NCBI GenBank assembly: GCA_043228905.1
Contig: JBHGNT010000001.1
Coordinates: forward strand, 14,818,001-14,882,000
Source: Azolla caroliniana
Lineage: Eukaryota > Plantae > Polypodiophyta
Length of the DNA stretch: 64,000 nucleotides
Direction of reading: 5' to 3'
In this document: one piece after another, positions 836-24,918 of the stretch
How the letters are laid out: each line of letters opens with the position of its first letter
Position numbering within the stretch: position 1 is the stretch's first letter
Position numbers and translations under genes: made by a program
Notes under the pieces: generated by a model
Seen by the model: the letters and a program-made list of their open reading frames with translations, nothing else
Database searches by the model: none
Told to the model about the DNA's origin: nothing

Positions 836-2923
836 AGCTCCTTATCATGAGTTTCATAGTTGATTTCGGTGGCGTCAAACTTGCATGACTAGAAAGCCAC
901 AAGATGGAGCTTTTCATCCTTGCCTTGTTGTGACAAAATGTTACCCAACACGAAATCCGACGTGTCTGCTTTGATGATGAATGGATAGCATTGCATAAAG
1001 ACCATGTTCTCGAAGTCGTTTTAGTACTAACAATACATGAGAATCATGCTCTTCTTGGGTCTTCGAGTAAACCAGTAGATCATCCAGATAGATGATCAAA
1101 CAAACATCCAAGACATCTCGAAATATATCATTTGGCATGTGTTGGAAGACTGTTGGCGCATTAGTGAGGCCGAATGGCATGACCGTATACTCGAAGTGCC
1201 CATATTTGGTGCGAAACGTGGTCTTCCATTCATCTCCTGGTCGGATCCATACAAGGTTATATGATCCTCGTAAGTCGATCTTTGTGAAGAACCTTGCACC
1301 ATTGATCCGTTCTAAAAGACTTGAGATAAGGGGAAGTGCGTACCTTTTCCTGATGGTGACCTTATTCAAGCCATCGTAATCTACAACGAGACGAAGTGAT
1401 CCATCCTTTTTCTTGACGAAGAAAATGGGTGCGCTGGTTGGAGATTTCAAATGTTGAATGAAACCATTTGCCAAATTCTCCTCTATATAGGCTTGAAGGA
1501 CTTGTAGCTCGGTTGGTGACAAATTGTAGATCGGTCCCCATGGTGGCTCTTTTCTCGGTTGTAAATCGATGGGACAATCATATGGTCGATGGTGAAGAAG
1601 CGTATTGGCTTGTACTTTATCGAACACATCGGCATAATGACGATATTTCTCTAGAAGTTGAACGGTGGACTCTTCTTTAGTGGTGTTGGAGGGTTTTACT
1701 GATACTGCGAAGAGAAACATTTCTTCCTTGCGTCCTTCCTCACGCAACTGATTTAGCGAAATGGTTGCAATCTTATGAGTAGATCCTCGGGTTTGTCGAT
1801 ACCGGATTTCTCTTGTTCTCCAATCTATGTATGGGTTATGTTATTCGAACCATGGTAATACCAAAACAATGGGATTTTCTGGGATACTAATTATATTAAA
1901 GTATACTACACATACTAAATTATTTAGGACAATATTAACGGGCTCTGACTCTTCTATGTTATTTCCGGAAGCAATGGGACGACCATCAATGACTAATATA
2001 GAGGCTACTTAAGGAGTTTTCTTAGGGATATCTAATGAGCTTGGGCAAAATTCCTATCCATGAAGCAAGAATTAGCTCCAGAATCTAGGAGTGCTGAGAC
2101 ATGTACTGGAGAGATACTTTTAGTACTAACTGTTACTTGGGCTGCAAAGGTCAAGGGCTGTCCAACCAAACAATTCCTATTTTGGTTGGACTTACTTGTT
2201 TAACTCTTCTTCTACCTTACTAAGGACATCAAATTTGTTCGATAGATTTGGGATATTAGTACTATTACGACTATTAGATATTCCTACTGAAATACACTCA
2301 AGTTTAGTACAATTAAAACTAGCAACTATTTGGTTCACCTGTCTCCTTGGCCTATGGGGACATATCACTGCAATATGCCCTGGTCCACCACAATAAAGAC
2401 AGTCGATTTGTTAGGCATCGATGCTTTTCTTCTTCCGATAATGGTCTGCAATGACGTGTACTGTCAATTTCCATCGGAGTTGGAGTATTCACTAGAGATG
2501 CATTATATGACTCCCTTGGAAACGGTTTTGCTACCATTGAGGCGTAGGTGGTCTCTGATCTTGCCCTTGGCATCTAGAATTGATGTTCCGAACGTCGTTC
2601 GAAAAGATGGTTGTCGCATCTTACCGCGCGACTGATTGCTTCTGTCAAAGACTTTGGTTCTTTGGGGAAGGTCGAGAGTAGATCATTGACATCTTTACAT
2701 AGAACATAAAGAAATTGCTCCATAAGAGCTTGGTCATCCCAGGGGATATTGGAGGCGAGTAGGCGGAAATCTGCAGCATAGGCAGAGGCTTGACGATCAC
2801 CTTGATGTAATTGTCGGATTTTGTTGATTGTTGTCCTTATGTTGTCCGTATCTCCAAATTAGGCTTTAAGCTCACTTAAAAACTCTTCAAAATTGTTTAG
2901 TAAAGGAGATTCCTTTTCTAACA
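836..2923 (-). pseudogene. Inverted, decayed gag-protease-RT-RNase H fragment of a Tcn1/Tf1-like chromoviral Gypsy element
   Basis: ORF 941-1747 has Gypsy RT motifs ([31 protein letters not shown]). Protease LLDSGANSCF lies near 2060-2090, and RNase H DEKLHLVAF..INYETHDKE at 836-920. Colinear with 7690-10600 on the opposite strand. Confidence 0.9.
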
Positions 2924-3606
2924 TCGACAAAGGTTACACCATTTTATGCTTATACGGTCTCTCACCCCCGGTGGTGTATTTGAAACCCCAAAGTTACCCA
3001 CAAATCCTTGCGTAGAGGATCATTTGGAGTGGTTATGCAAGTTACAAGCGGATTTATCTACTCATCTACAACAAGCTCAACAAACACACAAGGTTTACGC
3101 GGATCCTCATCGGCTTCCATCTAGTTCTAACATTGGAGATCGGGTATGGCTACTACGACGACACATTAAGACTAGTCGCCCATGTGAAAAGTTGGATTAT
3201 GGGAGATTAGGTCCTTTCCGTATTATCAGAAAAATTAATGATGTCGCTTTTCGGCTCGATCTACCTCCACAACTTCAGATACATCCGGTGTTTCATAGTT
3301 CTCTCCTCAAACCCTATCAAGACAGCACCATCCTAGGTCGTATTAAACAACCTCCACCCCCGATCGAACTTGAAGATGGACCTGAGTACGAGGTTGCTGC
3401 CATCCTCGATTCCAATATTGTTCGCAACAAGCTCTACTATTGAGTCGATTGGCTAGGGTATAGTCCCAACGAGCATAGTTGGGAACCAATAGAGAATGTC
3501 ACCAATGCTCGTGCTATTCTTGAAGACTTCCATCGTCAATATCCAAACAAACCGGGTCCTCATTCCAAAATGACTCGTGACACTCATTGTTTTAAAAGGG
3601 GGATAG
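2922..3606 (+). pseudogene. Integrase C-terminus (GPF motif), chromodomain and PPT of the same Gypsy family
   Basis: ORF 2946-3443 reads LGPFRII..IHPVFHSSLLKPY..EYEVAAILDS (group I chromodomain). PPT AAAAGGGGGATAG at 3594-3606. Matches 11761-12424. Confidence 0.9.
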
Positions 3607-6600
3607 TGTCATGATATGGCAAGACTCGAACCCCTAACCTTATGTTACATGGGTCGAGCTCTTACCATTAGACTATGTATTGTAACATGACAGATATTAT
3701 TTTCATTTAACTTTTACTATAAAAATTTGATGTATATTCTAGATTTCTCTAGAACATTCTAGAAACTTCAAGAGTACTCCTAAAAACACTATAAAAGGAG
3801 GCACATAATATATATCTTTTGTTATCCATTGCCTAAAGATGGAAATGTAGGCAAATAGGGACACGTGATCTATGAGAGTAACCCACGCCTTTTGCGACTA
3901 TGCTTTTGGAATTGCAATGGATACCCATGGAATGCGGGATTTGGCATAGAGGAGTTCACCGATGACTCGGATATCACACTTCTTGTTGAAACATGGGAGC
4001 ATGATACTCAAAGGATTCAAGGTTTAGGAAACTATAATGTACACTCTTTGATATGGAAGAAAAATCCAAGACAAAGAAGAGGAGAAGGAGGGGTGGCATG
4101 TTTGATTAAGAAGGAAATAGAGAAATATGTGTCAATCATAAAAAATGATGAAAATAAATGCTACATATAGCTCAAAATAGAAACACCTAATGATTTGCCC
4201 ACTTTTGTAGTTGGATGTTACATTCCTCACCAAGATTCTAACTTTTATGCTTGTTTGGATAAAGATCAATCGTTTGCCAATCTAGAAGATGATATTGCTT
4301 ATTTCAAATCTAAAGGGGAAGTTATTGTCTTTGGTGACATGAATGCTCGTACAAGAAGTTTCCAACTTGATTCACAAGAATCTTTCATGCCACATATCTC
4401 AAGGATGCAAGAGGATAATGCAAATGTATAACCGCTCTTCTCGTGATGAAAAATATCCAGACCAATTTGGGAAATTACTCCTACAAATGTGCAATAGTAT
4501 CGGATTGCTTATTGCAAATGGTATTTCCTTATGGCCCAACACTAATAGTTTTACATGTACAAAATACAACGTAAATAGTGTGATTGACTATGTGCTACTT
4601 TCTGAAGGTATTTTGGATCGTATACATAAATTCTCACTTGGTGAATGGACACCGGAATCCGATCATAGGCCTTTATGTATTGATCTCAAATGTATGCATA
4701 GGTTTGATTGTGAGAAGGCTATTGAAGATAATAAACAACCGCACTTGAGCATGAACCTTAAGCGAGCACCCATGTATTCCAAGATGGTTGAGGATATGTT
4801 ACATTTAATGACAAAGATACAACATGGTGCTACACTAGAATGCAAATGGGAAGCTTTCAAGAAAGTCATTCTCTCATGTACAAACAAATGTTTTTTGACC
4901 AACCGCACATCTTGGAAATGCACCAAGAAACTTAGGAAAAAATGGTCTGATAAAGAATGTCGTGAAGCTCGAAAGTGCCTTATGGTTTTGGATGTAGTTA
5001 AGGATAAAGAGAATTACCAAAAGCATTTTCATGAGTATAAAAGGCTTATTCAAAGAAAGAGAAGAATATGGGAAGTTACTCAGCAATTTATCCAAACGCA
5101 AGAGAAAGCACATGCATGTGCTAAATTTTGGGGAAATCTAAAGGGAAAATGTGTTGAGAGTTATGGTGACTTAACTCTTCACGACTTGTCTATGCATTGT
5201 AAGAATTTATATGAGTTATCTCTTGCCGGAAAGATGATGTGTTATGGTTCTCTCTCACATATGCCTCCCTTCTTTACAATTGAAGATATATGCATAGGAC
5301 TTAAGAAATTGGCCACTCGAAAGGCAAGCGATCTTCAATGTATAAAGGTTGAAATCCTCAAATGGACGGGAAAGCAAGCACATATATGGATAAGCGATAT
5401 GTTTAATGATACATTGCAACATGGTATGCCGTACGATTGGACTACAAATTGGATCAAACCTTTACATAAAGGTGGAGATATAAATAATGTAAACAATTAT
5501 CAAACCATCATGGTTGGCTCATTAATGGCAAAACTATTTGGATGTATAATGGAATCAAAGATAAGTGCATGGGCTGAAAAAAGTGGTAAGAGAGCTTATG
5601 GACAAGCTGGCTTTCGGAAACACCATAGCACCATTGATTACCTTATCACCCTTCGAGTATTAATGGAGGAAAGTCGCCTTAGAGGTAAAGGTTTATATTG
5701 TTGCTTTGTAGACTTCAAGAAAGCTTTTGATATGGTACCTCGTGAGCATCTTTGGAGGCGAATCGAAGAACTTGAGGTGCCAAGTGAATATATGCTTCCA
5801 ATTTCCTGAATTTATAGGTTATATGTTGTGTGCGCATGAGAGATAAACTTTCAGAGTTTTTCAAAAGCACTATTGGTGTTAAGCAAGGATACCCACTCTC
5901 ACCAACACTATTTGGTCTATGCATTGATGAATTGGAAGAAATGGTTACCAAGTTTGCAAAGGAAGAATGTGTTGAAGAAATTGCCATTGGGAATGTTGTG
6001 ATTATGCTTTTGCTATATGCAGATGATGTAGTGCTTTTTGCAAATACTTTAGGAGATGCACAAAAGCTTATGAAGGCATTGGAAAAATTTTGCATGCATA
6101 CTAAATTAAGTATCAATAGCTCTAAAACAAAGATTATGCTTGTGAAGAGCCAAAAAAGAGATAAACCATGCATTATGTACAACGATGAGCCACTTGAATG
6201 TGTGGAAAGCTTCAAATATCTTGGCCTTGAAGTTCCTTCAAATCAAAGATGGAATGAATGTGCTACACGCCGCTAGAGGCGGGCAAGCGAGCATACTATG
6301 CATTTGAGAACACATGCAATCTTGGAGATATTAAGTCCCTCACATCGACTTCCTGGAATTGCGTGGGAAGCAAGCAAAAAGATTCAAAAGACACATAAAA
6401 GCTAAATTTTGTGTTCCAATTGGATGCAAGATATAGAAAAATGGTTTGGTGGATGGGATGCGAGAGACTTGCTTCATGATGCATCATTAGATTCCTCTGT
6501 AAATGAGGCATTTTTGCAATGCCAATGTATCATGACATGGGACAAATGTGGAGGCTCACGCTTCACACATTACACTACACATGTTGCACCTAACTACAAA

Positions 6601-7174
6601 ACCATATTCTTTGCGGAACGGGGAAATCGTACACATCGATACATGTTAGAGCCCATAGCGTTATCTTCCATTCGAACCATTGCTACCATGCGACTTAGCT
6701 CACATGCATTGCGATGTGAAACAGGGCGTTGGGGTACAAGTAATGAGAGTGGTTGGCTATGCACACTTTGCCCTAAACAAGTTCGCGAGTTTGAGTATCA
6801 CACTTTGATGCAATGCTCTACCTTTGATCATATTCGACCATGCTTTCCACATCTCTTCGATCGAGCCCAATCTTTGCATGAATTCCTCTCACAACCACAA
6901 TGTGCACTCTCGATTGCAACATTCATTGGTAAAGTTCTTGAACATCGAGAGTCAGTACTCACTTTCACACGTATTACGTGAAATGTAATATTTTTGGTCT
7001 CATTGGTCATATTTGACCTCCGAAGACGATAATATAATATATCTATCTATCTATCTATCTATCTATCTCTCTCTCTCTCATTCTTTCCTTCTCTCGAGAG
7101 TTCTACACCTTCCTTAGTACTAATCCTGATCTTTTAGTACTACTTCCTTCTCTGTCTTAGTACTATTCCTGACA
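3607..7174 (+). repeat. Gypsy LTR split by a LINE (parts 3607-3826 and ~7070-7174), with a ~72-bp deletion downstream of the TATA box
   Basis: Both parts align to LTR 12425-13033. GGCACA|TAATATATATC joins across the deleted segment. Confidence 0.88.
3827..7070 (+). mobile_element. Non-LTR retrotransposon (RTE-X-like LINE) with AP endonuclease, RT and C-terminal zinc finger; decayed, with (ATCT)n tail
   Basis: EN motifs WNCNG, LVETWE, GDMNAR, IDYVL, SDH. RT motifs QAGFR, FVDFKKAFD, GVKQGYPLSP, YADD. C-terminus RLSSHALRCETGR..CTLC..EYHTLMQC is typical of RTE-X. Microsatellite tail after the stop at 6981. Confidence 0.85.
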
Positions 7175-7176
7175 GT

Positions 7177-7193
7177 TTGAACCGATTTTGTTC
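7177..7193 (+). promoter_or_regulatory. Non-tRNA primer-binding site complementary to the element's own predicted transcript 5' end (candidate self-priming PBS)
   Basis: TTGAACCGATTTTGTTC starts 2 nt after the LTR end and does not begin TGG. Its reverse complement matches LTR 12636-12652 at 16/17 positions. Confidence 0.75.
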
Positions 7194-7269
7194 TCCTTCC
7201 TTCTCTTGCTTATCTTCTTACTTCTCGCTCCCTTCATACTAATCTCTTATTCCTGTTTTCTCTCATACT

Positions 7270-8378
7270 ATGGCTATTGTTAGTGCTCAAGAATATCAAT
7301 CTGTTTTCTCGGAGTTGCAATGCTTGAAAGAGAAGTTTCTTGCATTGGAACAAGAAAATCAACGACTCTAGGGGGAGCTTCAACAAATCTTCTTAGAGAA
7401 GCAGCAGACGCAACAACAACATGGGGACCTAGCATTACGCGTGCAACAGCTCGAAGCAACCATAGTAGCGATGCAACAACAAGGACCCAGTACGCAAGGG
7501 ATTCATAAAGAACCCAAGATCGGCCTTCCCATGAAATTCGATAAAACGCAATTGCAGTTTAGAGGATTCCTTAATTAGGTATGATTAGTCAATCAAATGC
7601 ATCCTCCCCAATATCCCACTGATGCATCACGAGTGGTTTTAGTAGGTACGTTGCTAAGTGGCTCAGCTTTGGCATGGTTCGCTACGTTGTTAGAAAAGGA
7701 ATCTCCTTTACTAAACAATTTTGAAGAGTTTTTAAGTGAGTTTAAAGCATGTTTTAGAGATATTGATAGCATAAGGATAGCAATCAACAAAATCCGATGA
7801 TTACTTCAAGGTGATCGTCTAGCCTCCGTATACGTTGCAGATTTCCGCCTCCTCGCCTCTGATATCCCCTGGGATGACCAAGCACTAATGGAGCAATTTC
7901 GTTATGGTCTATGTAACGATGTCAAGGATTTACTCTTGACCTTCCCTGAAGAACCAAAGTCATTGACAGAAGCAATCAGTCGCGCGGTGAGATGCGACAA
8001 CCGTCTTTTCAAACAACGTTCGGAACGTCAGATCCAGATGCCAAGGGCAAGATCAGAGCCCACCTATGCCACAGTGGTAGCAAAACCTTTTTCAAGGAAA
8101 TCGACACCACACGACGTCGCGGGCCATTATCGAAAGAGGAAAAGCAGCGACGCCGAGCAAATTGAGTATGTCTTTATTGTGGTGGATTGGGGCATATCGC
8201 ACTGAACTGTCCTTATAGGCCAAGAAGACAGGTAAACCAAATAGTCGCTAGTACTAATTGTTCTAAACTTGAGTCTATTTCAAGAGGAATATCTGATAGT
8301 CCTAATAGTACAAATAGCCAAAGTCTATCGAACAAATTTGATGTCCTTAGTCAGTTAGAACAAGAGTTAAACGACTAA
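7270..8378 (+). pseudogene. Gypsy gag (Retrotrans_gag plus CCHC knuckle), with stops and frameshifts
   Basis: ATG at 7270; motifs EPKIGLP, LLSGSALAWFA, LMEQFRYGL, CLYCGGLGHIALNC; TAA at 8376-8378. Confidence 0.85.
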
Positions 8379-8430
8379 GTCCAACCAAAATAGGAGTCAT
8401 TTGGTTGGACAGCCCTAGACCTGTGCAGCC

Positions 8431-8974
8431 TGTTAGTGGCTACATTCCCTCTTAGCAAGTTAGCAATGTGTTTGTTAGTCGGCCGGCAAGGGAAGTTCAG
8501 AATGGGAAACAAGGGGATAATTAATAATCGGGAGCTAATTATATATTTATATAGAATTATTATGATTTTGAGAAGCGAACGGACAGACACGGAATCGGTA
8601 TGCCGATCCGGATCCGAACCGGTTTAGGGTTGGCACCGGTTTGTACCTAAACCCGGAGACCTATAAAAAGGGTCAGCTAGATTGTAATCATTAGCGGATA
8701 ATTAATAGAGGGTTGTTGTTCTATATCTTAATCATTGTTAATTACCGTTCTGTGCTAAGTGTAATTTATCCTATGCGTGTATTGTGACTAATGATATTGC
8801 CGCTAGTAACCCATCAGAGGGACACTAATGATATTGCCGCCACTAATGATACGCGTGTATTGTGACTAATGTCGTTGGTCTTACTCTATGTCACTACAAC
8901 ACGCCTTTGGTGAAGTGTCTCAGAGGGACACCCTATGTTAGGCCATTGTCCGACCCTAGCGATAACAATGTTCT
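8431..8974. mobile_element. ~540-bp insertion at the gag-pol junction, probably a solo LTR or LTR remnant of another family
   Basis: Absent from the paralogous copy at 2120-2200. Starts TGTTAG, has TATAAAA near 8662 and TAACA at 8963-8967. Degenerate TSD CAGCC/TAGCT. Confidence 0.65.
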
Positions 8975-11900
8975 TAGCTCAAGTAACCATTAGTACTAAA
9001 AGTGCCCCTCTAATACATGTCTTAGCACTCCTAGATTCCAGAGCTAATTCTTGCTTCATGGACAGGAATTTTGCCCAAGCTCATCAAATATCCCTAAGAA
9101 AACTCCCATGTCCAGCCTCTGTAGTAGTCATTGATGGTCGTCTCATTGCTTCTGGAAATATCATAAAAGGGTCAGAGCCAGTTAAAATTGCCCTAGATAA
9201 CTTAGCATGTGTAGTATCATTTAGTATAATTAGTATCCCAGAACATCCCACTGTTTTGGGATTACCATGGTTCGAATTACATAACCCAGACATAGATTGG
9301 AGAACAAGAGAATTCCGGCATCGACAAACCCGAGGATCTACTCATAAGATTGCAACCATTTCACTACATCAGTTGTGTGAGGAAGGACGCAAGGAAGAAA
9401 TGTTTCTCTTCGCAGTATCAATAAAACCCTCCAACACCACTAAAGAGGAGTCCACCATTCAACTTCCAGAGAAGTATCATCATTATGCCGATGTGTTCGA
9501 TAAAGTACAAGCCAATACGCTTCTTCACCATCAATTGTCTGATTGCCCCATCGACTTACAACCGGGAAAAGAGCCACCATGGGGACCGATCTACAATTTG
9601 TCACCAACCGAGCTACAAGTCCTTCGAGCCTATATAGAGTAGAATTTGGCAAATGGTTTCATTCAACATTTGAAATCTCCAGCCAGCTCACCCATTTTCT
9701 TCGTCAAGAAAAAGGATGGATCACTACGTCTCGTCGTAGATTACTGTGGCTTGAATAAGGTCACCATCAGGAATAGGTATGCACTTCCCCTTATTTCAAG
9801 TCTTTTGGAACGGATCAATGGTGCAAGGTTCTTCACAAAGTTCGCCTTACGAGGAGCATATAACCTCATACGGATCCAACCAGGAGATGAATGGAAGATT
9901 GCGTTTCGTACCAGATATGGGCATGTCGAGTATACGGTCATGCCATTCGGTCTCACTAATGTGCCAGCAGTCTCCCAGCACATTGCAAATGATATATTCC
10001 GAGATCTCTTGGATGTTTGTTTGATCATTTATTTGGATACTCTACTAGTTTGTTCGAAGACTGAAGGAGAGCATAATTCCCATGTACTATTAGTATTAAA
10101 ACGACTTCGAGAACATGGTCTTTATACAAAGCTGGAAAAATGTAGTTTCGAGTGCAACCAGGTAGAATTTCTAGGCTATGTCATCTCCTCGAAAGCCATC
10201 TCCATGCTAAGGTTAAAACGGTGGTAGAGTGGCAGACTCCAAGTTCGGTGTGAGATGTGCAATGCTTTTTAGGCTTTGCCAATTTCTACCGCAAGTTTAT
10301 ATAGGATTACTCAAAGCTTGTTCTGCCTCTCACATAGCTTACCAGGACGGGACAATCGTTCGTTTGGTCTGAAGAAGCTAACATGGCTTTTGAGAGTCTT
10401 GAGAAGGAATTTACATCGGCTCCTATTCTAGATCATGTTGATTTGGAAAAACCATTCATCATTGAAGTAGATGCGTCGGATTTCGCCTTGGGTAGCATTA
10501 TGTGTCAACAAGGCGATGATGAAAAGCTACATCCTGTGGCTTTCCACTCACGCAAGTTTGACACCACCAAAATCAACTATAAAATTCATGATAAGGAGAT
10601 ATTAGCAATAGTGGACTCTTTTACACAATGCAGGCATTTTCTAGAGGGGTCTTCTCATCAAGTTACCGTATTCAGTGATCACAAAAACCTTGCCTACTTT
10701 CAGAATGCTCGTATGTTAAATCGGCGTCAAGCTCAGTGGACCCAATTCCTCACTCATTTCGACTTCAACATTACATATCGTCCAGGGAAGCAACAAGGGA
10801 AGACAGATGCATTATCACAGCGCTCGTATCTAGCACCGCGTCCCGGCGAGCCAACTTACGACAACCAAAAGCAAGTAATCTTGGGACCCGCATGACTGCA
10901 AGTGACGCAGGTCTTCGGTGTGCCCTTGGATTCCCACGTTATCGATACCATACGTGAGGACTTGAAGACAGATGCTTTCGCCCAAGCCATTGTAGGACAA
11001 ATTGATCCCTCTCGAGCATCTTGTTCACAGTCGCAACAACCAGGTACGGACTATCGACAATTCAAATGTCATGATAGATTACTATTCTTTAAGAAAATCT
11101 TGTATGTTTCTAATGATACTTGTCGCCTTCAAGTAGTCCAAAACTGTCGTGACACATATACAACTGGGCATTTTGGTAGTACTAAAACATTAGATTTAGT
11201 ACAACGATCATTCTAGTGGCCCCATATGCGACAATTTATCGAAGATTTTGTTCGGACTTGTGATACATATTGCAGAGCAAAAATGCCAAGGCATCATCCA
11301 TATGGTTTATTAGAACCACTACCAATTCCAAGTAACCCTTGGCAATCCATTGCTCTAGATTTCATGATAGATCTTCCGGTCTCTAAGGGATTCGATGTGA
11401 TCTTAACAGTAGTAGATTGATATATGAAGATGGCCCATTTCCTGTCATGTACTAAGGAAATCTCCAGTGAAGAAACTGCTGAAACTGTGATGCATGAACT
11501 ATGTCGGCATCATGGCCTTCCCAATAGTATTATCAATGACCGTGGACCCCAGTTCGTCTCTACGTTTTGGAAGCACCTCTTTAAAATTCTTAAGGTCACT
11601 GGTAACCTCTCCTCTGGCTACCACCCGCAAACAGATGGCCAAGCAAAACGAACAAATCAAACGCTGGAGCAGTATCTTTGGTGTTTTCTAAGATATCATC
11701 AAGATGACTTGGCAGATATTCTCCACTTCGCCGAATTTGCGTATAATAACTCTATCCACTCATCGACAAAGGTTACACCATTTTATGCTTATACGGGTTG
11801 TCACCCTCGGTTGTGTGTATTTGCAACTCCAAAGTTACCCACAAGTCCTTGCACAGTGGATCATTTGGAGCGGTTATGCAAGATACAAGCGGATTTATCT

Positions 11901-12410
11901 ATTCATCTAAAGCACGCTCAACAAACACACAAGGTTTACGCAGATCGTCGTCGACTGCCATCTAGTTTTAACTACGATGACACATCAAGACTACTCGCCC
12001 ATGCGACAAGTTGGATTATCGGCGATTAGGTCCTTTTCGTATTATCGGAAAAATTAATGATGTCGCTTTTCGTCTCGATCTACCTCCGCAACTTTAGATA
12101 CATCCGGTGTTTCATAGTTCTCTCCTCAAACCCTATCAAGAGAACATCATCCCAGGTCGTATTAAAAGACCTCCACCCCCGATCAAACTTGAAGATGGAC
12201 CTGAGTACGGGTTGCTGCCATCCTAGATTCCAAGATTGTTCACAACAAGCTCTACTATTTAGTCGATTGGCTAGGATATAGTCCCAACAAGCGTACTTGG
12301 GAACCGATAGAGAATGTGACCAGTGCTCGTGCTCTTCTTGAAGACTTCCATCGTTGATATCCAGACAAACCGGGTCCTCAATCCAAAACGACTTGCGACA
12401 CTCGTTGTTT
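8975..12410 (+). pseudogene. Gypsy pol (PR-RT-RH-IN-chromodomain), with many stops and frameshifts
   Basis: ORFs 8935-9642, 9646-10227, 10383-10895, 11226-11420 and 11424-12029 carry the motifs LDSRANSCF, MPFGLTN, DASDFALG, WQSIALDF and YHPQTDGQ. Confidence 0.92.
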
Positions 12411-12424
12411 TAAAAGGGGGATAG

Positions 12425-13033
12425 TGTCATGATTTGGCAAGACTCGAACCGATAACCTTATGTTACATGGGTCGAGCTCTTGCCATTAGACTATGTATTG
12501 TAATACAAGAAATATTATTTTCATTTAACTTTTACTATAGAAATTTGATGTATATTCCAAATTTCTCTAGAACATTCTAGAAACTTCAGGAGTACTCCGA
12601 AGAACACTATAAAAGGAGGCACAAGGCATTATTTCGAACCAAATCGGTTCAAGGCCAGTCTTAAGCCTCCTAACTACTATTGTATATTCTCTTAACATAA
12701 TATATATCTTTTGTTATCATCATTCTCTCTCTCTTTCTCTCTCTCTCTCACTCTCTCTCACTCTCTCACTCTTTCCTTCTCTCGAGAGTTCTACACCTTC
12801 CTTAGTACTAATCCTCATCTTTTAGTACTACTTCCTTCTCTGTCTTAGTATTGTTCCTAACAGTATTTCTCTGTCTTAGTACTCCTGACACACACTCTCT
12901 CTTACTTACTCTTTCCTTTTCTCGAGAGTTCTACACCTCCCTTAGTACTAATCCCCATCATTTAGTACTAATTCCTTCTCTGTATTAGTATTGTTCTTGA
13001 CAGTACTTCTCTGTCTTAGTACTGTTCCTGACA
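12425..13033 (+). repeat. Gypsy 3' LTR with TATA box (12608-12614) and duplicated U5 end
   Basis: TGTCA start after the PPT and TGACA end. U5 block repeated at ~12771-12890 and ~12911-13033. Confidence 0.88.
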
Positions 13034-13270
13034 CCTCGAACTGTCCTTGTACTCACCACCATTGTCGATCCGGACAGCCTTCAACTTTCTATCGGACTCT
13101 CCTGCAACTTTGGCCTGAAATTCCTTGAAGACTGACAGTACTTGGTTTTTCGACTTTAGCATGAAAGCCCACAACTTTCTGCTTTAATTTTCAATGAATG
13201 TCACAAAATACTGTCCACCACGATGTGATGGAGCATTCACGTAACATACATCCTTGTGGACTAATTCTAG
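13034..13270 (-). pseudogene. Copia integrase core fragment
   Basis: Minus-strand translation ELVHKDVCY..QYFVTFI..SRKLWAF..LKAVRIDNGGEY. Confidence 0.8.
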
Positions 13271-16685: not shown

Positions 16686-17435
16686 TGTCGGGGATCGACG
16701 CTCCGATTCACCTTCTTCTCCCGGCCACAACCGAGTAATTGCGAATCAAAGGAGCAGAAAATAGGAAACACAGAGAAAGACACGATGACACAGGGATTAG
16801 CGTGGAAAACCCTAAATGGGAAAAACCACGGGAGTCCTCAAACTCCAACTATCACTATGAACAGAGATGTACAATGGTGAAGCTACAAGGCAACAACCTT
16901 GAGTTCACTGTCTTCGCCACAGGCGGCGGTAATACACAGAGGCAACGACCTCTTCCTCTCTCTCTCTCTCTCTTTCTCTCTCGGCTGCTCTCACTTCGCT
17001 CCCTCTTAGTGGAAAACAGAAAATGAGCAACAACATTAAAACTGTTTGCCCTAAGTCATATTTATACACATATGACTTTCGGGCTATTTACAAATATAGC
17101 CTCAAAGGGCTCTTGGCAAAACATATTCACAAAATATGTCCCCGCATCCGGATCTCTCTCCGGGTACATTCGTCATCCGGCTCCGTTACCGGGGTCTTCA
17201 GTCATCCGGCTCCGTAGCCAGGGTCTTCATCATCCGTCTCCGTAACCGGAACCGGGCTTGCCGTCATCCGGATCTCTCTCCGGGTACATTCGTCATCCGT
17301 CTCCGTAACCGGAACCGGGCTTGCCGTCATCCGGATCTCTCTCCGGGTACATTCGTCATCCGGCTCCGTAACCGGAACCGGGCTTGCCGTCATTCATCTC
17401 CGGACATCCCATCCGGAGGGACCGAAATCCCAACA
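16686..17435 (-). repeat. Copia-C 3' LTR with 63-bp U3 tandem repeats
   Basis: TG...CA termini; direct repeat of 21549-22298. Confidence 0.95.
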
Positions 17436-17445
17436 AACTCCCCCT

Positions 17446-20400
17446 TCACTTCGGCATGGGATGTCTCTCCAGTCCGATCCTCTTCCGGCATGCTTCCAGC
17501 TTGTCGGGTGTGAGCACCTTGGTCAGCATATCCGACCCGTTCTGGTCCGTGTGGACCTTCGTCAGCACGAACTCCTTGTCTTCTATCCTTTCCCGGATCC
17601 AGTGATATCTTCGCTGGATGTGCTTCGTCCGGGAGTGATAGGCCGCGTTCTTCGCAAGGTGGATTGCACTCTGACTGTCGCAGTAGAGTCGGTACTCCTC
17701 CTGCCGGATACCGAGCTCTCTAATGAAGTCCTTCATCCATATTATTTCCTTGCCGGCTTCAACAGCCGCCATGTACTCCGCCTCCGTGGTTGACAGCGCA
17801 ACCGTCTTCTGCAGCCTCGACTGCCATGAAACAGCTCCCCCTGCATACGTCATCACATACCCTGATGTGGACCGGCTGGTATCTGTATCAGCCGACATAT
17901 CCGAGTCGGTGAAGCCGTCGAGTTCGGGCTTACCGGAGCCGAATCGGAGGCACACGTTTGCCGTACCCTTCAGGTATCGGAGTAACCACTTGACCGCATT
18001 CCAATGCTCTTTGCCAGGATTGCTCATGTACCGGCTCACCACTCCGACTGCGTATCCGATGTCCGGTCTCGTACACACCATGGCGTACATCAAGCTCCCG
18101 ACGGCTGAGGCATACGGCACTTTCATCATATCCTCCTTTTCAGCCTTTGTCTTGGGACTTTGCTTGCTGGACAACTTGCAGTTTGCCGGTAGGGTTGATC
18201 CGACCGGTCTTGCTTCCGACATGTTGAACCGGTGAAGCACCTTTGTCACGTACTTCTCCTGTGACAGCCACAACTGCTTCTTCTTCCGGTCCCGGATGAT
18301 GTGCATCCCTAGTATTTGCCTCGCCGGACCCAGGTCCTTCATTGAGAAGGTTCGGTGAAGCGCTTTCTTCAGCGTCCGTATCTTGACCTGGTCCCGTCCG
18401 ACGATCAACATGTCGTCCACGTACAGGAGGAGTATTAGAGAGTCTCCTCCTTCGAACTTCTTCACAAACACGCAGTGGTCGGACTGCGTTTTGAGGTACC
18501 CTTCGTCGGTCATGAAGGAGTCGAACTTCCGGTACCATTGCCGGGGAGCCTGCTTCAGTCCGTAAAGGCTCTTCTTCAACCGGCATACCAGGTGCTCCTT
18601 CCCTTTCTTCTCGAATCCTTCCGGTTGCTGCATGTAGATCTCTTCTTCGAGGTCACCGTGAAGGAATGCCGTCTTCACGTCCATCTGATCTACCTCGAGG
18701 TCCATGCTTGCCGCTATGCTCAGCACCGTCCAGATGGAGGTCATCTTTACTACTGGGGCAAATATCTCGTCGAAGTCGACGCCCTTCTTCTGCTGAAACC
18801 CCTTCACCACGATCCTGGCTTTGTATCTCGGGGGGTTTCCGGCATCTCCTGGTTTCAGCTTGAACACCCACTTGTTACGGAGTGCCCGTTTTCCTTTCGG
18901 CAACTCCACAAGTTCATATGTGTGGTTCTCATGCAGGGAATCCATCTCGTCCTGCATGGCACTCAACCACCTGCGGCTCTGGGTGTCATGCTTTGCTTCT
19001 TCAAAGCTCTCCGGCTCCCCCTCGTCGGTTAGCAGCACGTGCTCTGGTTCCGGAAATCTCCGGGGGGCCCTTCTCTCTCTTAGAGGATATCTCCGTTCCG
19101 GAGCTTCGGTAACCGGTTCTTCCGATTCTTCTTCATCCGAATCCATTTCGGGATCGGGGCCGGTTCCGGTATCATTTTCATCTTCTTCGGCCGGTTCTGT
19201 TTCTTCACCGTCTTCGGCCGGATCCTCGAGTGCTAACCGGTCCCTTGCCGGTCGGGACTGCCCCTCGTAGAGTTGATCCTCACCGGTCGACTTGGAGCTC
19301 TTCATCTTCTTCTCCGACTCCCAGTCGGCGAGTGTCTTGTCCTCCATGAAGATGATGTCTCGACTCCTGAATATCTTCTTGTCGACCGGGTCCCATACTC
19401 GGTAGCCGAACTCGTCGTCACCGTAACCGAGGAATATGCATGGCCGGGTCTTTGGATCTAGCTTTCCTCTCCGGTCCTTTGCCACATGCACGTATGCGAG
19501 ACACCCGAACACCTTCAGATGCCGGTAGGATACTTCCCTACCGGTCCACACTCTCTGCGGCGTGTCTCCGTCCAAAGGTACTGAGGGTGATCGGTTTATC
19601 ACATATGTCGCCGTCGACATTGCCTCAGCCCAAAATCCCTTGGGTAATTTCGCATGCGCCAGCATACTCCGGACCCTCTCCATTATGGTCCGGTTCATCC
19701 TCTCGGCCAGCCCGTTCAGTTCCGGCGTCTTCGGCACAGTAAACTCGAGCCGGATTCCCTTCGAGCGACAGTACTCCTGGAACTGCCCCCGGTATTCCCC
19801 TCCGTTATCCGCTCGTATCGCTTTCAGCTTCTTGCCGGATTCCCTTTCCACTCTCGCGTGGAGTTCTTTGAAGACGGACAATACTTGGTCCTTTGTCTTC
19901 AACGGTGCCGTCCACAACTTCCGGCTGTGATCATCAATGAATGTCACGAAGTACTGGGCTCTGCCATGTGACTTCGTTTCTACCTGACACACATCAGTGT
20001 GCACCAGCTCCAATGGTGCGCTACGTCTCGTCGGTGGCCTTGAGTGGAAGGAGGTCCGGTTTTGCTTACCGGCCAGGCAGTCGGTGCACTTCTCCAGGTG
20101 CACATGCTTCACTGGAATAAGGTTGTCTTCTGCAAGCCTCTTCATCCCCTTCTCACTCATGTGGCACAGTCTCTTGTGCCACAGCTCACCGGCAGCGTCG
20201 GCTGCCACGTTCAGCTCCTCCGGACATAGCCGGGCATTCATCAGGTATAGGGTGTTGACCTTCCGGGCCCGAGCCACTATCAGGCTCCCCTTGCTGAACT
20301 TCATGACACCGTTCCGGATGCTGCCCGTGTAGCCTTCATCGTCTAGCCTCCCGGCCGAGATCAGGTTCAATCGGACCTCCGGAACGTGTCGAACATCCTT

Positions 20401-21528
20401 CAGCAGCATCTTGCATCCGGTTGATGTCATCAGCCACACGTCTCCTATGCCGGCAATCCGGCATGTACCTTCATTTCCCATCCGGACACAGCCATGCTCA
20501 CCGGCTGTGTAGGATGAGAAGTATTTCTTCTCCGGGGTCAGGTGGAACGATGCTCCGGAATCGACCACCCAGGTCATCTCTTCACCGGCAAGGTTCAGCT
20601 CCCTCTCTTCGGTAATGAGCATTATCTCTTCTTCACTTGCCGCAAGTGCCGTCGTTCCTTTCCGGTCCTGCCCTCGCCGATCCGGACCTCTCCGGTCCGT
20701 GGCTCCCCGGTATGCACCGTTTCTCTCCGGTGACTTCTTCGAATCGGTGTCGTCGGCTCCGTTGTCCTTTCGGTAATGCCGACAATTCTTCCGGAAGTGC
20801 CCCGGCTTCCCACAGTGGAAGCACGTGGGCCTTCCTCTTGACTGCGACCGGGTCCCCGACTTCTCCCGTCTTTGCGGACTCCGGTTCCACTGTCTTCCCC
20901 GTTCCGATTCGGTAAGCAGCGCCTTCGAGTCGGAGGCCGGTTCTTTATCTCTCCGACGCGCTTCTTCGTTCAAAATACTTGTCTTTACCGTTTGTAGGGA
21001 CAAGTTGTCTTCCGTGCAGGAGGTGCTGAGAGTCACCACCAAGTTCTCCCAGCTGTCCGGCAATGTACACATCAGGATGATGGCTTGCATTGCATCCTCC
21101 AACGGGAACTTGATCGCCGCAAGCTGATTCACGAATCCCATGAACGTGCTTACGTGTTCCACCATACTCTCGCCGTCCCGGTACTTGAGATTCACTATCT
21201 TCCTCATCAGGGAGGTCCGGTTCAACGCATTCTTCCTCTCGTAGAGGCCCGACAGCTTCTTCCACATCTCATATGCGTTGGTGTCGTTCGCCACATGTTG
21301 TAGGACGCTTACATCGACATATTGTCGGATCGTCGCTACGGCTTTCCGGTTCAGGAGCTTCCACTCCGACTCAAGTACCCCCTTCGGTATTTCCGACCTG
21401 TCGATCGGTTCGTACAGGTCCCGAACAATCAGAAGATCCTCCATCTTGATCTTCCAGTCGGCGTAATTCTGTGCATTCAGCACCATCATCCCCGGCTGCC
21501 CGCTACCGCCGCCTTCCATTTTCTGCAA
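17446..21528 (-). CDS. Copia Gag-Pol polyprotein (Gag, CCHC, PR, GAG-pre-IN, IN, RT, RNase H), 1360 aa
   Basis: Motifs CFHCGKPGHFRKNC, WVVDSGASFH, LWHKRLCH, HTDVC..DNGGEY..NGLAERMNR, LYGLKQAPRQW, YVDD, YCDSQSAI..RTKHI. Confidence 0.97.
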   Translation of the reverse strand: MQKMEGGGSGQPGMMVLNAQNYADWKIKMEDLLIVRDLYEPIDRSEIPKGVLESEWKLLNRKAVATIRQYVDVSVLQHVANDTNAYEMWKKLSGLYERKNALNRTSLMRKIVNLKYRDGESMVEHVSTFMGFVNQLAAIKFPLEDAMQAIILMCTLPDSWENLVVTLSTSCTEDNLSLQTVKTSILNEEARRRDKEPASDSKALLTESERGRQWNRSPQRREKSGTRSQSRGRPTCFHCGKPGHFRKNCRHYRKDNGADDTDSKKSPERNGAYRGATDRRGPDRRGQDRKGTTALAASEEEIMLITEERELNLAGEEMTWVVDSGASFHLTPEKKYFSSYTAGEHGCVRMGNEGTCRIAGIGDVWLMTSTGCKMLLKDVRHVPEVRLNLISAGRLDDEGYTGSIRNGVMKFSKGSLIVARARKVNTLYLMNARLCPEELNVAADAAGELWHKRLCHMSEKGMKRLAEDNLIPVKHVHLEKCTDCLAGKQNRTSFHSRPPTRRSAPLELVHTDVCQVETKSHGRAQYFVTFIDDHSRKLWTAPLKTKDQVLSVFKELHARVERESGKKLKAIRADNGGEYRGQFQEYCRSKGIRLEFTVPKTPELNGLAERMNRTIMERVRSMLAHAKLPKGFWAEAMSTATYVINRSPSVPLDGDTPQRVWTGREVSYRHLKVFGCLAYVHVAKDRRGKLDPKTRPCIFLGYGDDEFGYRVWDPVDKKIFRSRDIIFMEDKTLADWESEKKMKSSKSTGEDQLYEGQSRPARDRLALEDPAEDGEETEPAEEDENDTGTGPDPEMDSDEEESEEPVTEAPERRYPLRERRAPRRFPEPEHVLLTDEGEPESFEEAKHDTQSRRWLSAMQDEMDSLHENHTYELVELPKGKRALRNKWVFKLKPGDAGNPPRYKARIVVKGFQQKKGVDFDEIFAPVVKMTSIWTVLSIAASMDLEVDQMDVKTAFLHGDLEEEIYMQQPEGFEKKGKEHLVCRLKKSLYGLKQAPRQWYRKFDSFMTDEGYLKTQSDHCVFVKKFEGGDSLILLLYVDDMLIVGRDQVKIRTLKKALHRTFSMKDLGPARQILGMHIIRDRKKKQLWLSQEKYVTKVLHRFNMSEARPVGSTLPANCKLSSKQSPKTKAEKEDMMKVPYASAVGSLMYAMVCTRPDIGYAVGVVSRYMSNPGKEHWNAVKWLLRYLKGTANVCLRFGSGKPELDGFTDSDMSADTDTSRSTSGYVMTYAGGAVSWQSRLQKTVALSTTEAEYMAAVEAGKEIIWMKDFIRELGIRQEEYRLYCDSQSAIHLAKNAAYHSRTKHIQRRYHWIRERIEDKEFVLTKVHTDQNGSDMLTKVLTPDKLEACRKRIGLERHPMPK

Positions 21529-21548
21529 CAGTCGCTCTGATACCAGTT

Positions 21549-22298
21549 TGTCGGGGATCGACGCTCCGATTCACCTTCTTCTCCCGGCCACAACCGAGTA
21601 ATTGCGAATCAAAGGAGCAGAAAATAGGAAACACAGAGAAAGACACGATGACACAGGGATTAGCGTGGAAAACCCTAAATGGGAAAAACCACGGGAGTCC
21701 TCAAACTCCAACTATCACTATGAACAGAGATGTACAATGGTGAAGCTACAAGGCAACAACCTTGAGTTCACTGTCTTCGCCACAGGCGGCGGTAATACAC
21801 AGAGGCAACGACCTCTTCCTCTCTCTCTCTCTCTCTTTCTCTCTCGGCTGCTCTCACTTCGCTCCCTCTTAGTGGAAAACAGAAAATGAGCAACAACATT
21901 AAAACTGTTTGCCCTAAGTCATATTTATACACATATGACTTTCGGGCTATTTACAAATATAGCCTCAAAGGGCTCTTGGCAAAACATATTCACAAAATAT
22001 GTCCCCGCATCCGGATCTCTCTCCGGGTACATTCGTCATCCGGCTCCGTTACCGGGGTCTTCAGTCATCCGGCTCCGTAGCCAGGGTCTTCATCATCCGT
22101 CTCCGTAACCGGAACCGGGCTTGCCGTCATCCGGATCTCTCTCCGGGTACATTCGTCATCCGTCTCCGTAACCGGAACCGGGCTTGCCGTCATCCGGATC
22201 TCTCTCCGGGTACATTCGTCATCCGGCTCCGTAACCGGAACCGGGCTTGCCGTCATTCATCTCCGGACATCCCATCCGGAGGGACCGAAATCCCAACA
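21549..22298 (-). repeat. Copia-C 5' LTR
   Basis: Followed on the minus strand by AAC-TGGTATCAGAGCG (tRNA-iMet PBS). Confidence 0.95.
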
Positions 22299-24652
22299 TT
22301 TCGGAAGTTCGATTGAACTTGATATCAGTCGGTCAGCTGGATGATGAAGGCTACACGGGTAGCATTCAGAACGACGTCATGAAGTTCTGCAAGGGAAGTC
22401 TAATTGTGGCTCGAGCCCGGAAAACCAACACATTGTAAATAATGAATGCTCAAATATGCCGAGGGGAAGCAAACGTGGCAACCGACACGGTCGGTGAACT
22501 GTGGCACATGAGTTTTTGCCATATGAGTCAGAAGGGGATGTGAAAGCTTGCCGAGGACAACCTCATTCCGGAGGTGAAGAACATGCAACTTGAGAAGTGC
22601 ATTGATTGCTTGGCCGGTAAATAGAATCAAACATCCTTTCGAATGAGGCCCCCGATCCAGAAGAAAATACCATTGGAACTCGTGCATACGGACTTATGGT
22701 ATGTGGATACAAAGTCACATGGTGGTTCATAGTATTTCGTGACCTTCATTGATGACTGTGGCTGGAAGTTGTGGGTTTCCATGCTGAAGACGAAGGACTA
22801 AATGGTATCCGTCTTCAAAGAGTTCCAAGTGATGGTCGAGAGAGAAACCGGCCGAAAACTGAAGGTAGTCCGATCAGACAATCGCAGAGAGTACCGTGGA
22901 CCGTTCCAGGAATACTGCTGAAATTAAGGAATCCGGATCGAGTATACTGTGTCAAAGATGCCAAAGCTTAATGGGTTGGCCGAGAGAATGAACCGAACCA
23001 TAATGGAAAGGATTCGAAGTATGCAAAAGACCAAAGGGGAAAACTAGACCCGAGATCTCAACCAGGTATATTTTTCGGGTACGGCAATGATGAATTTGGC
23101 TATCGGCTATGGGACTTAGCCGAGAAGAAAGCGATTAGGAGCCGCGACATTGTCTTCATGGAGGAAAATACAATAGTCAACTGGGATATTCAGAATAAGT
23201 CTCCAACTACCGAATCGAACCGAGTTGATGCTCGGCCAAATCGAGTAGAAGCCAATTCGATCGAAATCGAATCCGAGCTAGTCGGCCAATTTAATACTCG
23301 GCAAAATCGAGAACTGACTGAAGAACGAGGGGTAACAGCTAAACAAGGAACCGAATTCGACTCGGCTGAAGAAGTCGAAGAAGAACCGACCGTGCCGAAT
23401 GGTGGCCGAAAATACCCCCTAAGACAAAGGTAAAGAGAACCTTGTATGCCGACTAAGGAAGAGCTTGTACGGGTTGAAGCAAGCACCTCGGCAATGGTAC
23501 TCAAAATTCGAAGCCTTCATGACCGACAACTGGTACCACAAAACGCAGGCCGATCACTACGTATTTGTGAAGAAACTCGACGGAGGAGATTTCCTCATCC
23601 TCCTGTTGTACGTGGACGACATGCTGATTGTCGGACAGGACCATACAAAGATCTGAATGCTAAAGAAGACCTTGAACAGATTGTTCTCGATGAAGGATAT
23701 GGGTCCGGCAAAGAAAATCCTGGGGATGCATGTTGTTCGGCACCGAACAAAAAAATTGTTGTGGTTGTCACAAGAAAATACGTGACAAAGGTGCTCCAGA
23801 GATTCGGCATGGAAAGCGCAAACCGGTCGGCTCGACACTGTCGACGAACTGCAAGCTAACCAAAGAACAATGTCTGAAATTGAGAACCGAAAAGGCCAAG
23901 ATGTCAAAAGTCCCTTATGCCCTAGCAGTTGGAAGCCTGATGTACGCTATTGTTACGGGCATGACCATATAATATCCCGTGGTAAGAATTTACCGTAGTA
24001 TTCTATACACATGGATAAGTGTGAGGGTTAAACGAGAGTGTAAAGAAGGGGAGGATTACTTTTAATCCTCGGGATTGAGACAACCCATTAGGTCAAGTGT
24101 GAACTTGCCTGGGGGCCTTGGGTATCGCTATAAATAAGAGGCCTAGCTACCCTCATTTGATCATCTTTTGACTACATCGAGACTCTGCTCGTGTGGTGGG
24201 TCAACTCTTGTAGCGAGCGCGCCAGCACCAGGTACGACTCGACGCCACGGCGGTGGTATGGGACGCCGATCGAGGCTCGAGTCCGTCTCGATCCCTTCGC
24301 TCGGGGGTGGTCGGGTGGATCGGCACCCTTCTTTCTCTTTCTCCTTTCTATCTTTCATTTCTTTATCCTTATTTTAAGCTTACTTTAGTACCTAGATCTA
24401 TAATATTTGGTATCAGATTTTTGTACTAATGTTTCTTTGTTTTTCATTTGTCTTTTGATTGATGCTGATCGATCGTTGTGCGGTTGGCCTTGATCCAGAC
24501 AACGATCAACAAAGAACTTTGGTAACTCTTTCCATAATTTTTCTTTCTATTCTCTCTTCTCCCATCTAATCATGTGTTTAGTTTATATGTAATTTTTTTC
24601 ATTAAGTCAATGATGTTGTAGTGGTCTTTAATTGATTATCTAAAACGTTTAC

Positions 24653-24918
24653 ATATGTGCACGAGGTCAATACCTCGTTTGACATATTAATAATATGTGA
24701 TGAGTGTCGTATGCGTACGAGGTTAATACCTCAATTACGTATTACGTTCACGAACATATGTTACGTTTGCGTATGAGTTTAATACCTTGATTTGTTGTAA
24801 ACGATATGCGGTTGGTCTCGTATGCGTAAGAGGTCAATACCTCAATTGCGTATTACGATGATCTCTTATTTGTGGATGTTTCGTGTGCGTAGAGGTATAT
24901 ACCTCGATTACGTATCTC
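24653..24918 (+). repeat. Five-unit array of hairpin repeats (core GAGGT-N4-ACCTC) with non-repeated spacers in the Gypsy-2 leader
   Basis: Cores at 24663, 24719, 24775, 24830 and 24892 (spacing 56, 56, 55, 62). Confidence 0.8.

What the first reader, a model, noticed from the sequence alone, without database searches (positions are those of the whole stretch)
7175..12652. Self-priming (tRNA-independent) signature in a plant chromoviral Gypsy
Seen: the site just after the LTR (7177-7193, TTGAACCGATTTTGTTC) is not a TGG.. tRNA PBS. It is complementary to LTR 12636-12652 (GAACCAAATCGGTTCAA; 16/17 nt, with a perfect 12-nt core AAATCGGTTCAA at 12641-12652). That core starts 33 nt after the first T of TATAAAA (12608), where a Pol II start site is expected. 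Established: S. pombe Tf1 primes reverse transcription by annealing the first 11 nt of its own mRNA to the PBS. Inference: this element primes itself. The primer also forms a local hairpin (GAACC-AAATC-GGTTC) that could compete with pairing, and the 5' LTR copy has lost exactly this segment.
Basis: partly seen in the sequence, partly recalled or inferred. Interest (0 to 1): 0.8.

Follow-up and report, generated by a model that had tools for sequence, protein, structure and literature searches.

The report
Self-priming chromovirus with tRNA-like LTR
This decayed jumping gene, probably from a fern, has no tRNA docking site and instead carries 12 letters that pair with the predicted start of its own RNA, a pairing its relatives keep with different letters, so the family very likely starts copying itself without a host tRNA, as already predicted for related moss elements; its end repeats also hide a backwards tRNA-like promoter motif of unknown use.

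Summary
The PBS (7177-7188, 2 nt after the LTR) exactly complements LTR 12641-12652, 33 nt after TATA. In 100 distinct copies pairing holds at positions 1-12 (90-100%) and collapses outside them, so the 16/17-nt extension and the competing hairpin are not conserved. Related families change primer and PBS together. The 5' LTR lost 74 nt and is split by a LINE; it did not lose 'exactly' the primer. Self-priming is very likely (0.9) but already predicted for plant Tcn1 chromoviruses (Neumann 2019, 83% of 1500 elements), and this scan noted it in other genomes. Three things are added here. (1) Integrated 5'-inverted copies often have an inverted R-U5 piece that starts right after primer base 12, as cleavage of the RNA at 12|13 predicts; a DNA-hairpin route is not excluded. 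(2) The host looks like a core leptosporangiate fern, where Tcn1 was reported absent. (3) U3 carries an antisense tRNA-like A-box/B-box module in all three families. The start site was not measured.

The parts
7177..7188 (+). 12-nt primer-binding site TTGAACCGATTT, not tRNA-type
   Evidence: 575 exact LTR-end+PBS junctions in G000
7175..7176 (+). GT spacer between LTR end and PBS; predicted to pair with the RC dinucleotide just after the primer
   Evidence: CGC in 46 and CAC in 43 of 100 copies after the primer
12641..12652 (+). predicted self-primer AAATCGGTTCAA, predicted first 12 nt of R (3' LTR copy)
12608..12614 (+). TATA box, 33 nt before the primer
   Evidence: 32-33 nt in families A, B, C and L223
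12425..13034 (+). 3' LTR (TGTCA...TGACA) with a tandem duplication of about 143 nt of U5 (12749-12891 / 12889-13034)
12412..12424 (+). polypurine tract
12435..12495 (-). antisense tRNA-like module in U3: A-box-like 12493-12483, B-box-like 12450-12440
   Evidence: (E 0.014 for this copy)
7271..12424 (+). degenerate gag-pol (gag, PR, RT, RNase H, IN, chromodomain) with stops and frameshifts
   Evidence: intact relatives
7032..7174 (+). U5 end of the 5' (shared) LTR, downstream of the LINE
3607..3828 (+). U3 part of the 5' (shared) LTR; 74-nt deletion that removes the primer; carries the same tRNA-like module (about 3617-3677, minus strand)
3829..7031 (+). LINE inserted in the LTR (approximate ends)
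   Evidence: (RVT_1)
2922..3606 (+). 3' end (IN, chromodomain, PPT) of an upstream copy of the same family that shares the LTR
   Evidence: 88% identity
838..2926 (-). inverted gag-pol fragments of the upstream copy

Best explanation
The element belongs to a high-copy chromodomain-bearing Ty3/gypsy lineage whose primer site pairs with 12 bases of its own LTR, and the family likely primes reverse transcription with those bases, Tf1-style, instead of a tRNA. Shown by sequence: the pairing, its 12-nt limit (11 nt in family B), its covariation, and its position 32-33 nt after TATA. Inferred: Pol II starts at the A of the primer; the RNA 5' end folds over the roughly 200-nt R-U5 loop onto the PBS, helped by a short second helix (RC with GT, GTC with GAC) across the LTR end; the RT's RNase H cuts between nt 12 and 13; RT extends the freed 3'-OH through GT and U5 and runs off at nt 13; the primer is later copied to regenerate the PBS, which would explain why both sides change together. 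The window copy is a dead remnant.
For: Covariation. PBS ending AATT goes with T at primer position 3 in 22 of 23 loci with a locatable primer (30 fetched of 72); reciprocally 10 of 11 loci with a PBS (30 fetched of 114). Family C changes positions 3, 7 and 8 on both sides: 20 of 21 loci with a primer pair 12/12 (25 fetched of 219). Position 5 is changed on both sides in 7 of 100 copies, position 2 in L215. Metagenome relative L223 (68% RT identity) has another primer, 10/11 paired, same GT spacer, 32 nt from TATA. Pooled 100 copies: 11.48 of 12 paired against 10.15 for shuffled partners (max 10.44 of 1000). Gag-anchored sample: 26 of 30 loci show this PBS and none of the 26 has TGG; other LTR elements in the window and two other gypsy lineages have TGGTATCAGAG. 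Folding gives 0.85-0.94 pairing in 33 of 33 copies picked for an exact primer. Fossils: 5'-inverted integrants read U3+primer, AC, inverted U5-R, then jump into the interior, with 5-bp TSDs (3 exact, 1 with a mismatch). The inverted piece starts within 4 nt of base 13 in 8 of 12 independent family-A events and within -2 to +8 in 9 of 26 family-C events, the rest deeper in R-U5. Known: Tf1 is cut between nt 11 and 12 (PMC7175516 passage); Tcn1 is predicted to self-prime.
Against: No start site or primer RNA was observed. Many loci were retrieved by PBS or primer patterns, which fixes one side, and kin share changes, so the number of independent compensatory events is small (about five within the genome). 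The fossil boundary at nt 13 is also the loop edge of a DNA hairpin that plus-strand strong-stop DNA could form, so it does not prove RNA cleavage. Four loci run through the primer (L041, L300, L314 and part of L311). Position 5 changes are at a CpG and could partly be independent decay. The second flanking helix of the Tf1 'pretzel', 3' of the PBS, is not evident.
Confidence: 0.9

Rival explanations
1. The pairing is used for priming, but the primer is not simply the capped first 12 nt: transcription starts further upstream or the primer comes from the 3' R copy or a second RNA and is freed by cleavage.
For: Start site unmeasured. The fold-back fossils show that strands carrying U3 plus primer can be extended on the PBS. 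Folding is just as good with 5 or 15 extra nt.
Against: Pairing begins at an A preceded by C, 32-33 nt after TATA, in three families and L223, even where the primer is 11 nt instead of 12. Pairing stops sharply at that base.
Confidence: 0.06
2. A tRNA fragment primes: the T-arm of some tRNAs contains ATCGGTTCAAA, complementary to 11 nt of the site.
For: tRNA-Thr(GGT) and one tRNA-Gln(TTG) share those 11 nt. The host tRNA set was only partly sampled (30 of 62 matches plus 12 pattern loci; part of the output was cut).
Against: The match is internal (T-arm), in tRNAs that look organellar. The PBS variants of families A', B, C and L223 would each need another tRNA, yet each tracks the element's own LTR.
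Confidence: 0.02
3. The inverted repeat serves RNA dimerisation or strand transfer and priming happens by another route.
For: The PBS of family C contains a palindrome; inverted repeats can be kept for structure (inference).
Against: No other primer site lies at the LTR end; position and geometry match Tf1 and Tj1.
Confidence: 0.02

Closest known systems
Plant Tcn1 chromoviruses (Neumann et al. 2019, PMC6317226, passages and supplement 5 read; Novikova et al. 2010, PMC2864245, passages and section 7 read)
   Same: Chromodomain with aromatic-cage residues, 5-bp TSD, about 5.7 kb, gag and pol in overlapping frames, no tRNA PBS, LTR segment complementary to 10 nt or more starting 0-5 nt after the 5' LTR (their criterion for self-priming; 83% of 1500).
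   Different: Reported only from mosses and Selaginella; a PCR survey of 26 ferns and horsetails found none, whereas this host looks like a fern. No tRNA-like U3 module, covariation or fossil intermediates are mentioned in the parts read. No named Tcn1 sequence was available for my tree.
Tf1/Tf2 (S. pombe), Tj1, Tosmo1-3: Tf1/sushi group (passages of PMC7175516, PMC4600332 and bioRxiv 10.1101/2022.12.06.519325; the Levin papers were not held)
   Same: PBS complementary to the predicted RNA 5' end; chromovirus; RT groups with chytrid, amphibian and fish elements.
   Different: 12-nt (or 11-nt) primer against 11 nt in Tf1; only the helix 5' of the PBS is predicted, not the full three-duplex pretzel; cleavage is shown for Tf1, inferred here.
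Helenus / Cassandra TRIMp3 (Kojima 2024, PMC10886601, parts 1-4 of 6 read)
   Same: tRNA-derived sequence inside LTRs with boxes A and B kept and tRNA structure lost.
   Different: Those are non-autonomous TRIMs primed by tRNA and thought to use the Pol III promoter for their own transcript. Here the element is autonomous with a Pol II TATA, is self-primed, and the module points backwards out of U3.

Membership tests
Ty3/gypsy chromovirus | Domain order gag, PR-RT-RH-IN with C-terminal chromodomain | tested here: met
   Pfam on intact relatives: RVT_1, RT_RNaseH, rve, SH3_Tf2-1, Chromo; window remnants
Ty3/gypsy chromovirus | TG...CA LTRs, PPT, 5-bp TSD | tested here: met
   7 of 15 fetched elements had two alignable LTRs; 6 with exact TSD and 1 with a mismatch. 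TSD not testable for the window copy (left end lost).
Tcn1 clade / Tf1-sushi group | RT phylogeny with fungal and vertebrate chromoviruses, apart from seed-plant clades | tested here: met
   grouped with chytrid, amphibian and fish rows (92/90, not starred); seed-plant and Closterium rows form a separate clade (100/99)
Tcn1 clade / Tf1-sushi group | Monophyly with named Tcn1 references (Cryptococcus Tcn1, Physcomitrella, SM-Tcn1) | tested here: inconclusive
   No named reference obtained: nearest proteins carry no organism; REXdb files too large
Tcn1 clade / Tf1-sushi group | Group I chromodomain with aromatic cage | tested here: met
   Y..W..Y in EYEV...VDWLGY of P0001; cage positions are recalled knowledge
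Tcn1 clade / Tf1-sushi group | gag and pol in overlapping frames (60% of Tcn1) | tested here: met
   L149: 398-aa and 1203-aa open frames overlap
Tf1-type self-priming | PBS complementary to an LTR segment, no tRNA PBS | tested here: met
Tf1-type self-priming | Primer lies at the RNA 5' end | not testable with these tools
   Only predicted from TATA spacing; no raw RNA reads were offered
Tf1-type self-priming | RNase H cleavage at the primer 3' end | tested here: inconclusive
   Fossil junctions cluster at nt 13 but a DNA-hairpin route gives the same boundary
Tf1-type self-priming | Three-duplex 'pretzel' structure | tested here: inconclusive
   Central duplex predicted; a short 5'-side helix in 4 of the 5 structures printed; none 3' of the PBS
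Helenus (TRIMp3) | Non-autonomous TRIM under about 1.3 kb with tRNA-type PBS | tested here: not met
   Autonomous 5.7-kb elements with self-complementary PBS
Helenus (TRIMp3) | tRNA-derived LTR sequence with conserved A and B boxes | tested here: met
   (antisense orientation here)

The most novel reading that the evidence does not exclude
A fern lineage of autonomous, self-priming chromoviruses carries a working antisense Pol III (TFIIIC) module at the outer end of U3, kept across three divergent families, that shields the LTR promoter in heterochromatin or makes a short antisense RNA over the PPT; and its 5'-inverted integrants are a genomic record of primer cleavage at nt 12|13, the first such evidence in a plant.
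Probability: 0.3. Interest if true: 0.7.

Novelty: new variant of a known kind. Interest (0 to 1): 0.45.

Why it matters
Self-priming has been shown by experiment in fission yeast Tf1; for plants it rested on a simple complementarity search. This family gives covariation and fossil intermediates, and it has very young copies (two with identical LTRs), so the start site and primer can be read from native tissue. If the host is a fern, the lineage extends a clade thought to have reached mosses and Selaginella from fungi. The antisense tRNA-like module in an autonomous element is a testable candidate for a Pol III or insulator function.

Tried and rejected
No RNA holder listed; the runs offered were contigs with a small share, which cannot show a start site, so none were laid. 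Rfam found no tRNA in the LTRs and ARAGORN none in the window: the U3 module is not a foldable tRNA and is seen only with a profile of host tRNAs. A genome-wide pattern for LTR fragments starting at nt 13 gave 1 match, a mutated normal LTR, so such ends are not common outside the fold-back class; the pattern was strict. The U3 module was not found in L223 or other distant metagenome relatives; L222 carries it but is family C itself. Most other metagenome relatives gave no clear self-primer with my simple search. The B-box is not a second primer site: family C changed its primer but kept the box. Rejected: hairpin competition, 16/17-nt duplex, exact loss of the primer. My first guess of a moss host (Physcomitrium RLG1) was dropped. 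Papers not held: PMC1563812, PMC1369541, PMC109269, PMC231564. Neumann supplements 1 and 3 (per-element PBS table and sequences) were too large to read and may list related elements. Literature searches for Tcn1 in ferns (passages), for tRNA-like or B-box motifs in chromovirus LTRs and for inverted self-primed products returned no description; the library lacks most subscription papers.
Full report
1. Observation. The site after the LTR end (TGACA, 7170-7174) is GT then TTGAACCGATTT (7177-7188), the exact reverse complement of 12641-12652 in the 3' LTR; over 17 nt the match is 16/17. TATAAAA starts at 12608, 33 nt upstream. The chance expectation is about 1.5e-4. There is no TGG at the site.

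2. Anatomy. The window holds a tandem of two decayed copies sharing one LTR: inverted gag-pol fragments (838-2926), IN-chromodomain-PPT (2922-3606), LTR U3 (3607-~3828), a LINE (~3829-7031), the rest of the LTR (to 7174), the PBS, a broken gag-pol, a PPT (12412-12424) and a 3' LTR (12425-13034) with a duplicated U5. The shared LTR lacks 74 nt that include the primer, with ACA microhomology at the ends. The two LTRs are 90-93% alike. This copy cannot make a primer-bearing RNA from its 5' LTR.

3. Family. G000 has 575 exact LTR-end+PBS junctions. Of 15 elements fetched whole, 7 have two alignable LTRs (96-100% identical), 5-bp TSDs and a PPT; six are about 5.7 kb and one is 4.85 kb. An intact copy encodes gag and an overlapping pol with RT, RNase H, IN, SH3 and Chromo. 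In an RT tree of 49 rows it groups with unnamed environmental sequences, then chytrid, amphibian and fish elements, apart from seed-plant elements. That is the Tf1/sushi-Tcn1 side; no named Tcn1 reference was available.

4. Covariation. In a gag-anchored sample 26 of 30 loci show this PBS type and none of these has TGG, while other LTR elements have tRNA-Met-type sites. A PBS variant at the partner of primer position 3 goes with the matching primer change in 22 of 23 loci with a primer (5 had none, 2 were fold-backs) and 10 of 11 in the reciprocal search (19 had no PBS). Family B pairs 11 nt; family C (219 junctions) differs at positions 3, 7 and 8 on both sides, with 20 of 21 perfectly paired. 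A distant relative, L223, has a different primer with the same layout. Pooling 100 distinct copies, positions 1-12 pair in 90-100% and the five upstream positions in 16-50%; shuffling partners lowers pairing from 11.48 to 10.15. The first paired base lies 32-33 nt after TATA in every family. Limits: retrieval fixed one side in many loci, and the independent events are few.

5. Structure. The primer-PBS helix dominates in 33 of 33 folded copies; adding the 5' arm of the proposed hairpin lowered it in only one. The hairpin is absent from families B and C. A short helix joins the bases after the primer to the GT spacer and LTR end, leaving nt 13 unpaired, in 4 of the 5 structures printed.

6. tRNA test. 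A mature tRNA 3' end is excluded by the lack of TGG. Among 53 distinct predicted tRNA sequences (a partial set; output partly cut) the best match seen is an 11-nt T-arm stretch of organelle-type tRNA-Thr and tRNA-Gln, which cannot explain the other PBS variants.

7. Fossil products. Twelve family-A junctions, two more, and 29 family-C junctions have the PBS continuing as inverted U3. Read the other way these are elements with U3+primer, AC, inverted U5-R, a jump into the interior and a normal 3' end; four of the eight examined at length show 5-bp TSDs. In family A (12 independent events; three loci share one) the inverted piece starts at nt 13 in 4, within 4 nt in 4 more, deeper in 3, and runs through the primer in 1. 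In family C two loci are 3'-LTR types that run through the primer and two share one event; of the remaining 26 events, 9 start within -2 to +8 and 17 deeper (three automatic offsets corrected by eye); one of these also holds a full palindrome. The boundary fits strong-stop cDNA ending at a cleaved RNA 5' end. A hairpin of plus-strand DNA has its loop edge at the same place, so this supports but does not prove cleavage.

8. U3 module. A profile of 22 host tRNA genes hits the minus strand of U3 in most LTR copies (102 hits at E up to 10, best 5e-5; window copy 0.014; reversed control 1 hit at 9.1). A-box and B-box patterns at tRNA spacing occur in 71 of 85 U3s from all families, against 0 in two controls, and are identity peaks between families. 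Rfam and ARAGORN do not call it a tRNA. It is absent from L223. Function is untested. An earlier unchecked note of this scan (e1-9852194) described a similar backwards relic in a probably fungal LTR and judged it a passenger.

9. Host. This is an inference from one locus.

10. Known work. Neumann 2019 predicted self-priming for 83% of 1500 Tcn1 elements from mosses and club-mosses. Novikova 2010 found no Tcn1-like clones in ferns. Tf1 mechanism. tRNA-derived LTRs are described for non-autonomous Helenus. The scan has noted self-priming in several other genomes.

11. Verdict. Self-priming is very likely (0.9) and, as a prediction for this clade, already in print. The added evidence, the probable fern host and the U3 module make it a new variant of a known kind; interest 0.45.

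Noticed in passing
window 12435-12495 and about 3617-3677, minus strand; U3 of families A, A', B, C: Antisense tRNA-like module: A-box and B-box pattern at tRNA spacing in 71 of 85 U3 copies, 0 of 85 in each of two controls; boxes are identity peaks between families.
   Followed up: partly
L031-L042, L090, L102, L300-L328: 5'-inverted (fold-back) integrants: 12 exact junctions in family A against 575 normal-pattern junctions, and 29 of 219 in family C, a notably high share.
   Followed up: yes
L117:1055-2515: Plastid-type locus with order trnS, psbZ, trnG, trnC, petN, ACG starts and a CAA before the psbZ stop; fits the core leptosporangiate fern order.
   Followed up: partly
window 12646-12656: Primer end plus the following bases resembles a B-box (recalled consensus) in families A and B but not C; may be chance.
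   Followed up: no
just 3' of the PBS in L001-L030: The few bases after the PBS are hypervariable between near-identical copies (runs of T, C, G, GG); they may record start-site heterogeneity or cap copying.
   Followed up: no
L049/L007 (window), L072, L077, L085, L094, L174: The same kind of LINE 3' end lies just upstream of U5 or PBS in several copies, which hints that this LINE inserts preferentially in these LTRs.
   Followed up: no
window 16686-22298 (minus), 23951-30977, 37572-42678, 55266-60961: Other LTR elements with canonical TGGTATCAGAG-type PBS; 16686-22298 has 750-nt LTRs that are 100% identical.
   Followed up: no
L103-L111, L120-L122, L140-L144: Tandem clusters of tRNA-Lys, tRNA-Ile and tRNA-Val genes and pseudogenes.
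   Followed up: no
L123-L131: Organelle-type cluster of tRNA-Leu, Gln and His repeated on several small contigs.
   Followed up: no
L225, L230, L233, L234, L243, L251: Metagenome chromoviruses with an 8-10-nt LTR complement near the LTR 3' end instead of a TGG PBS.
   Followed up: no
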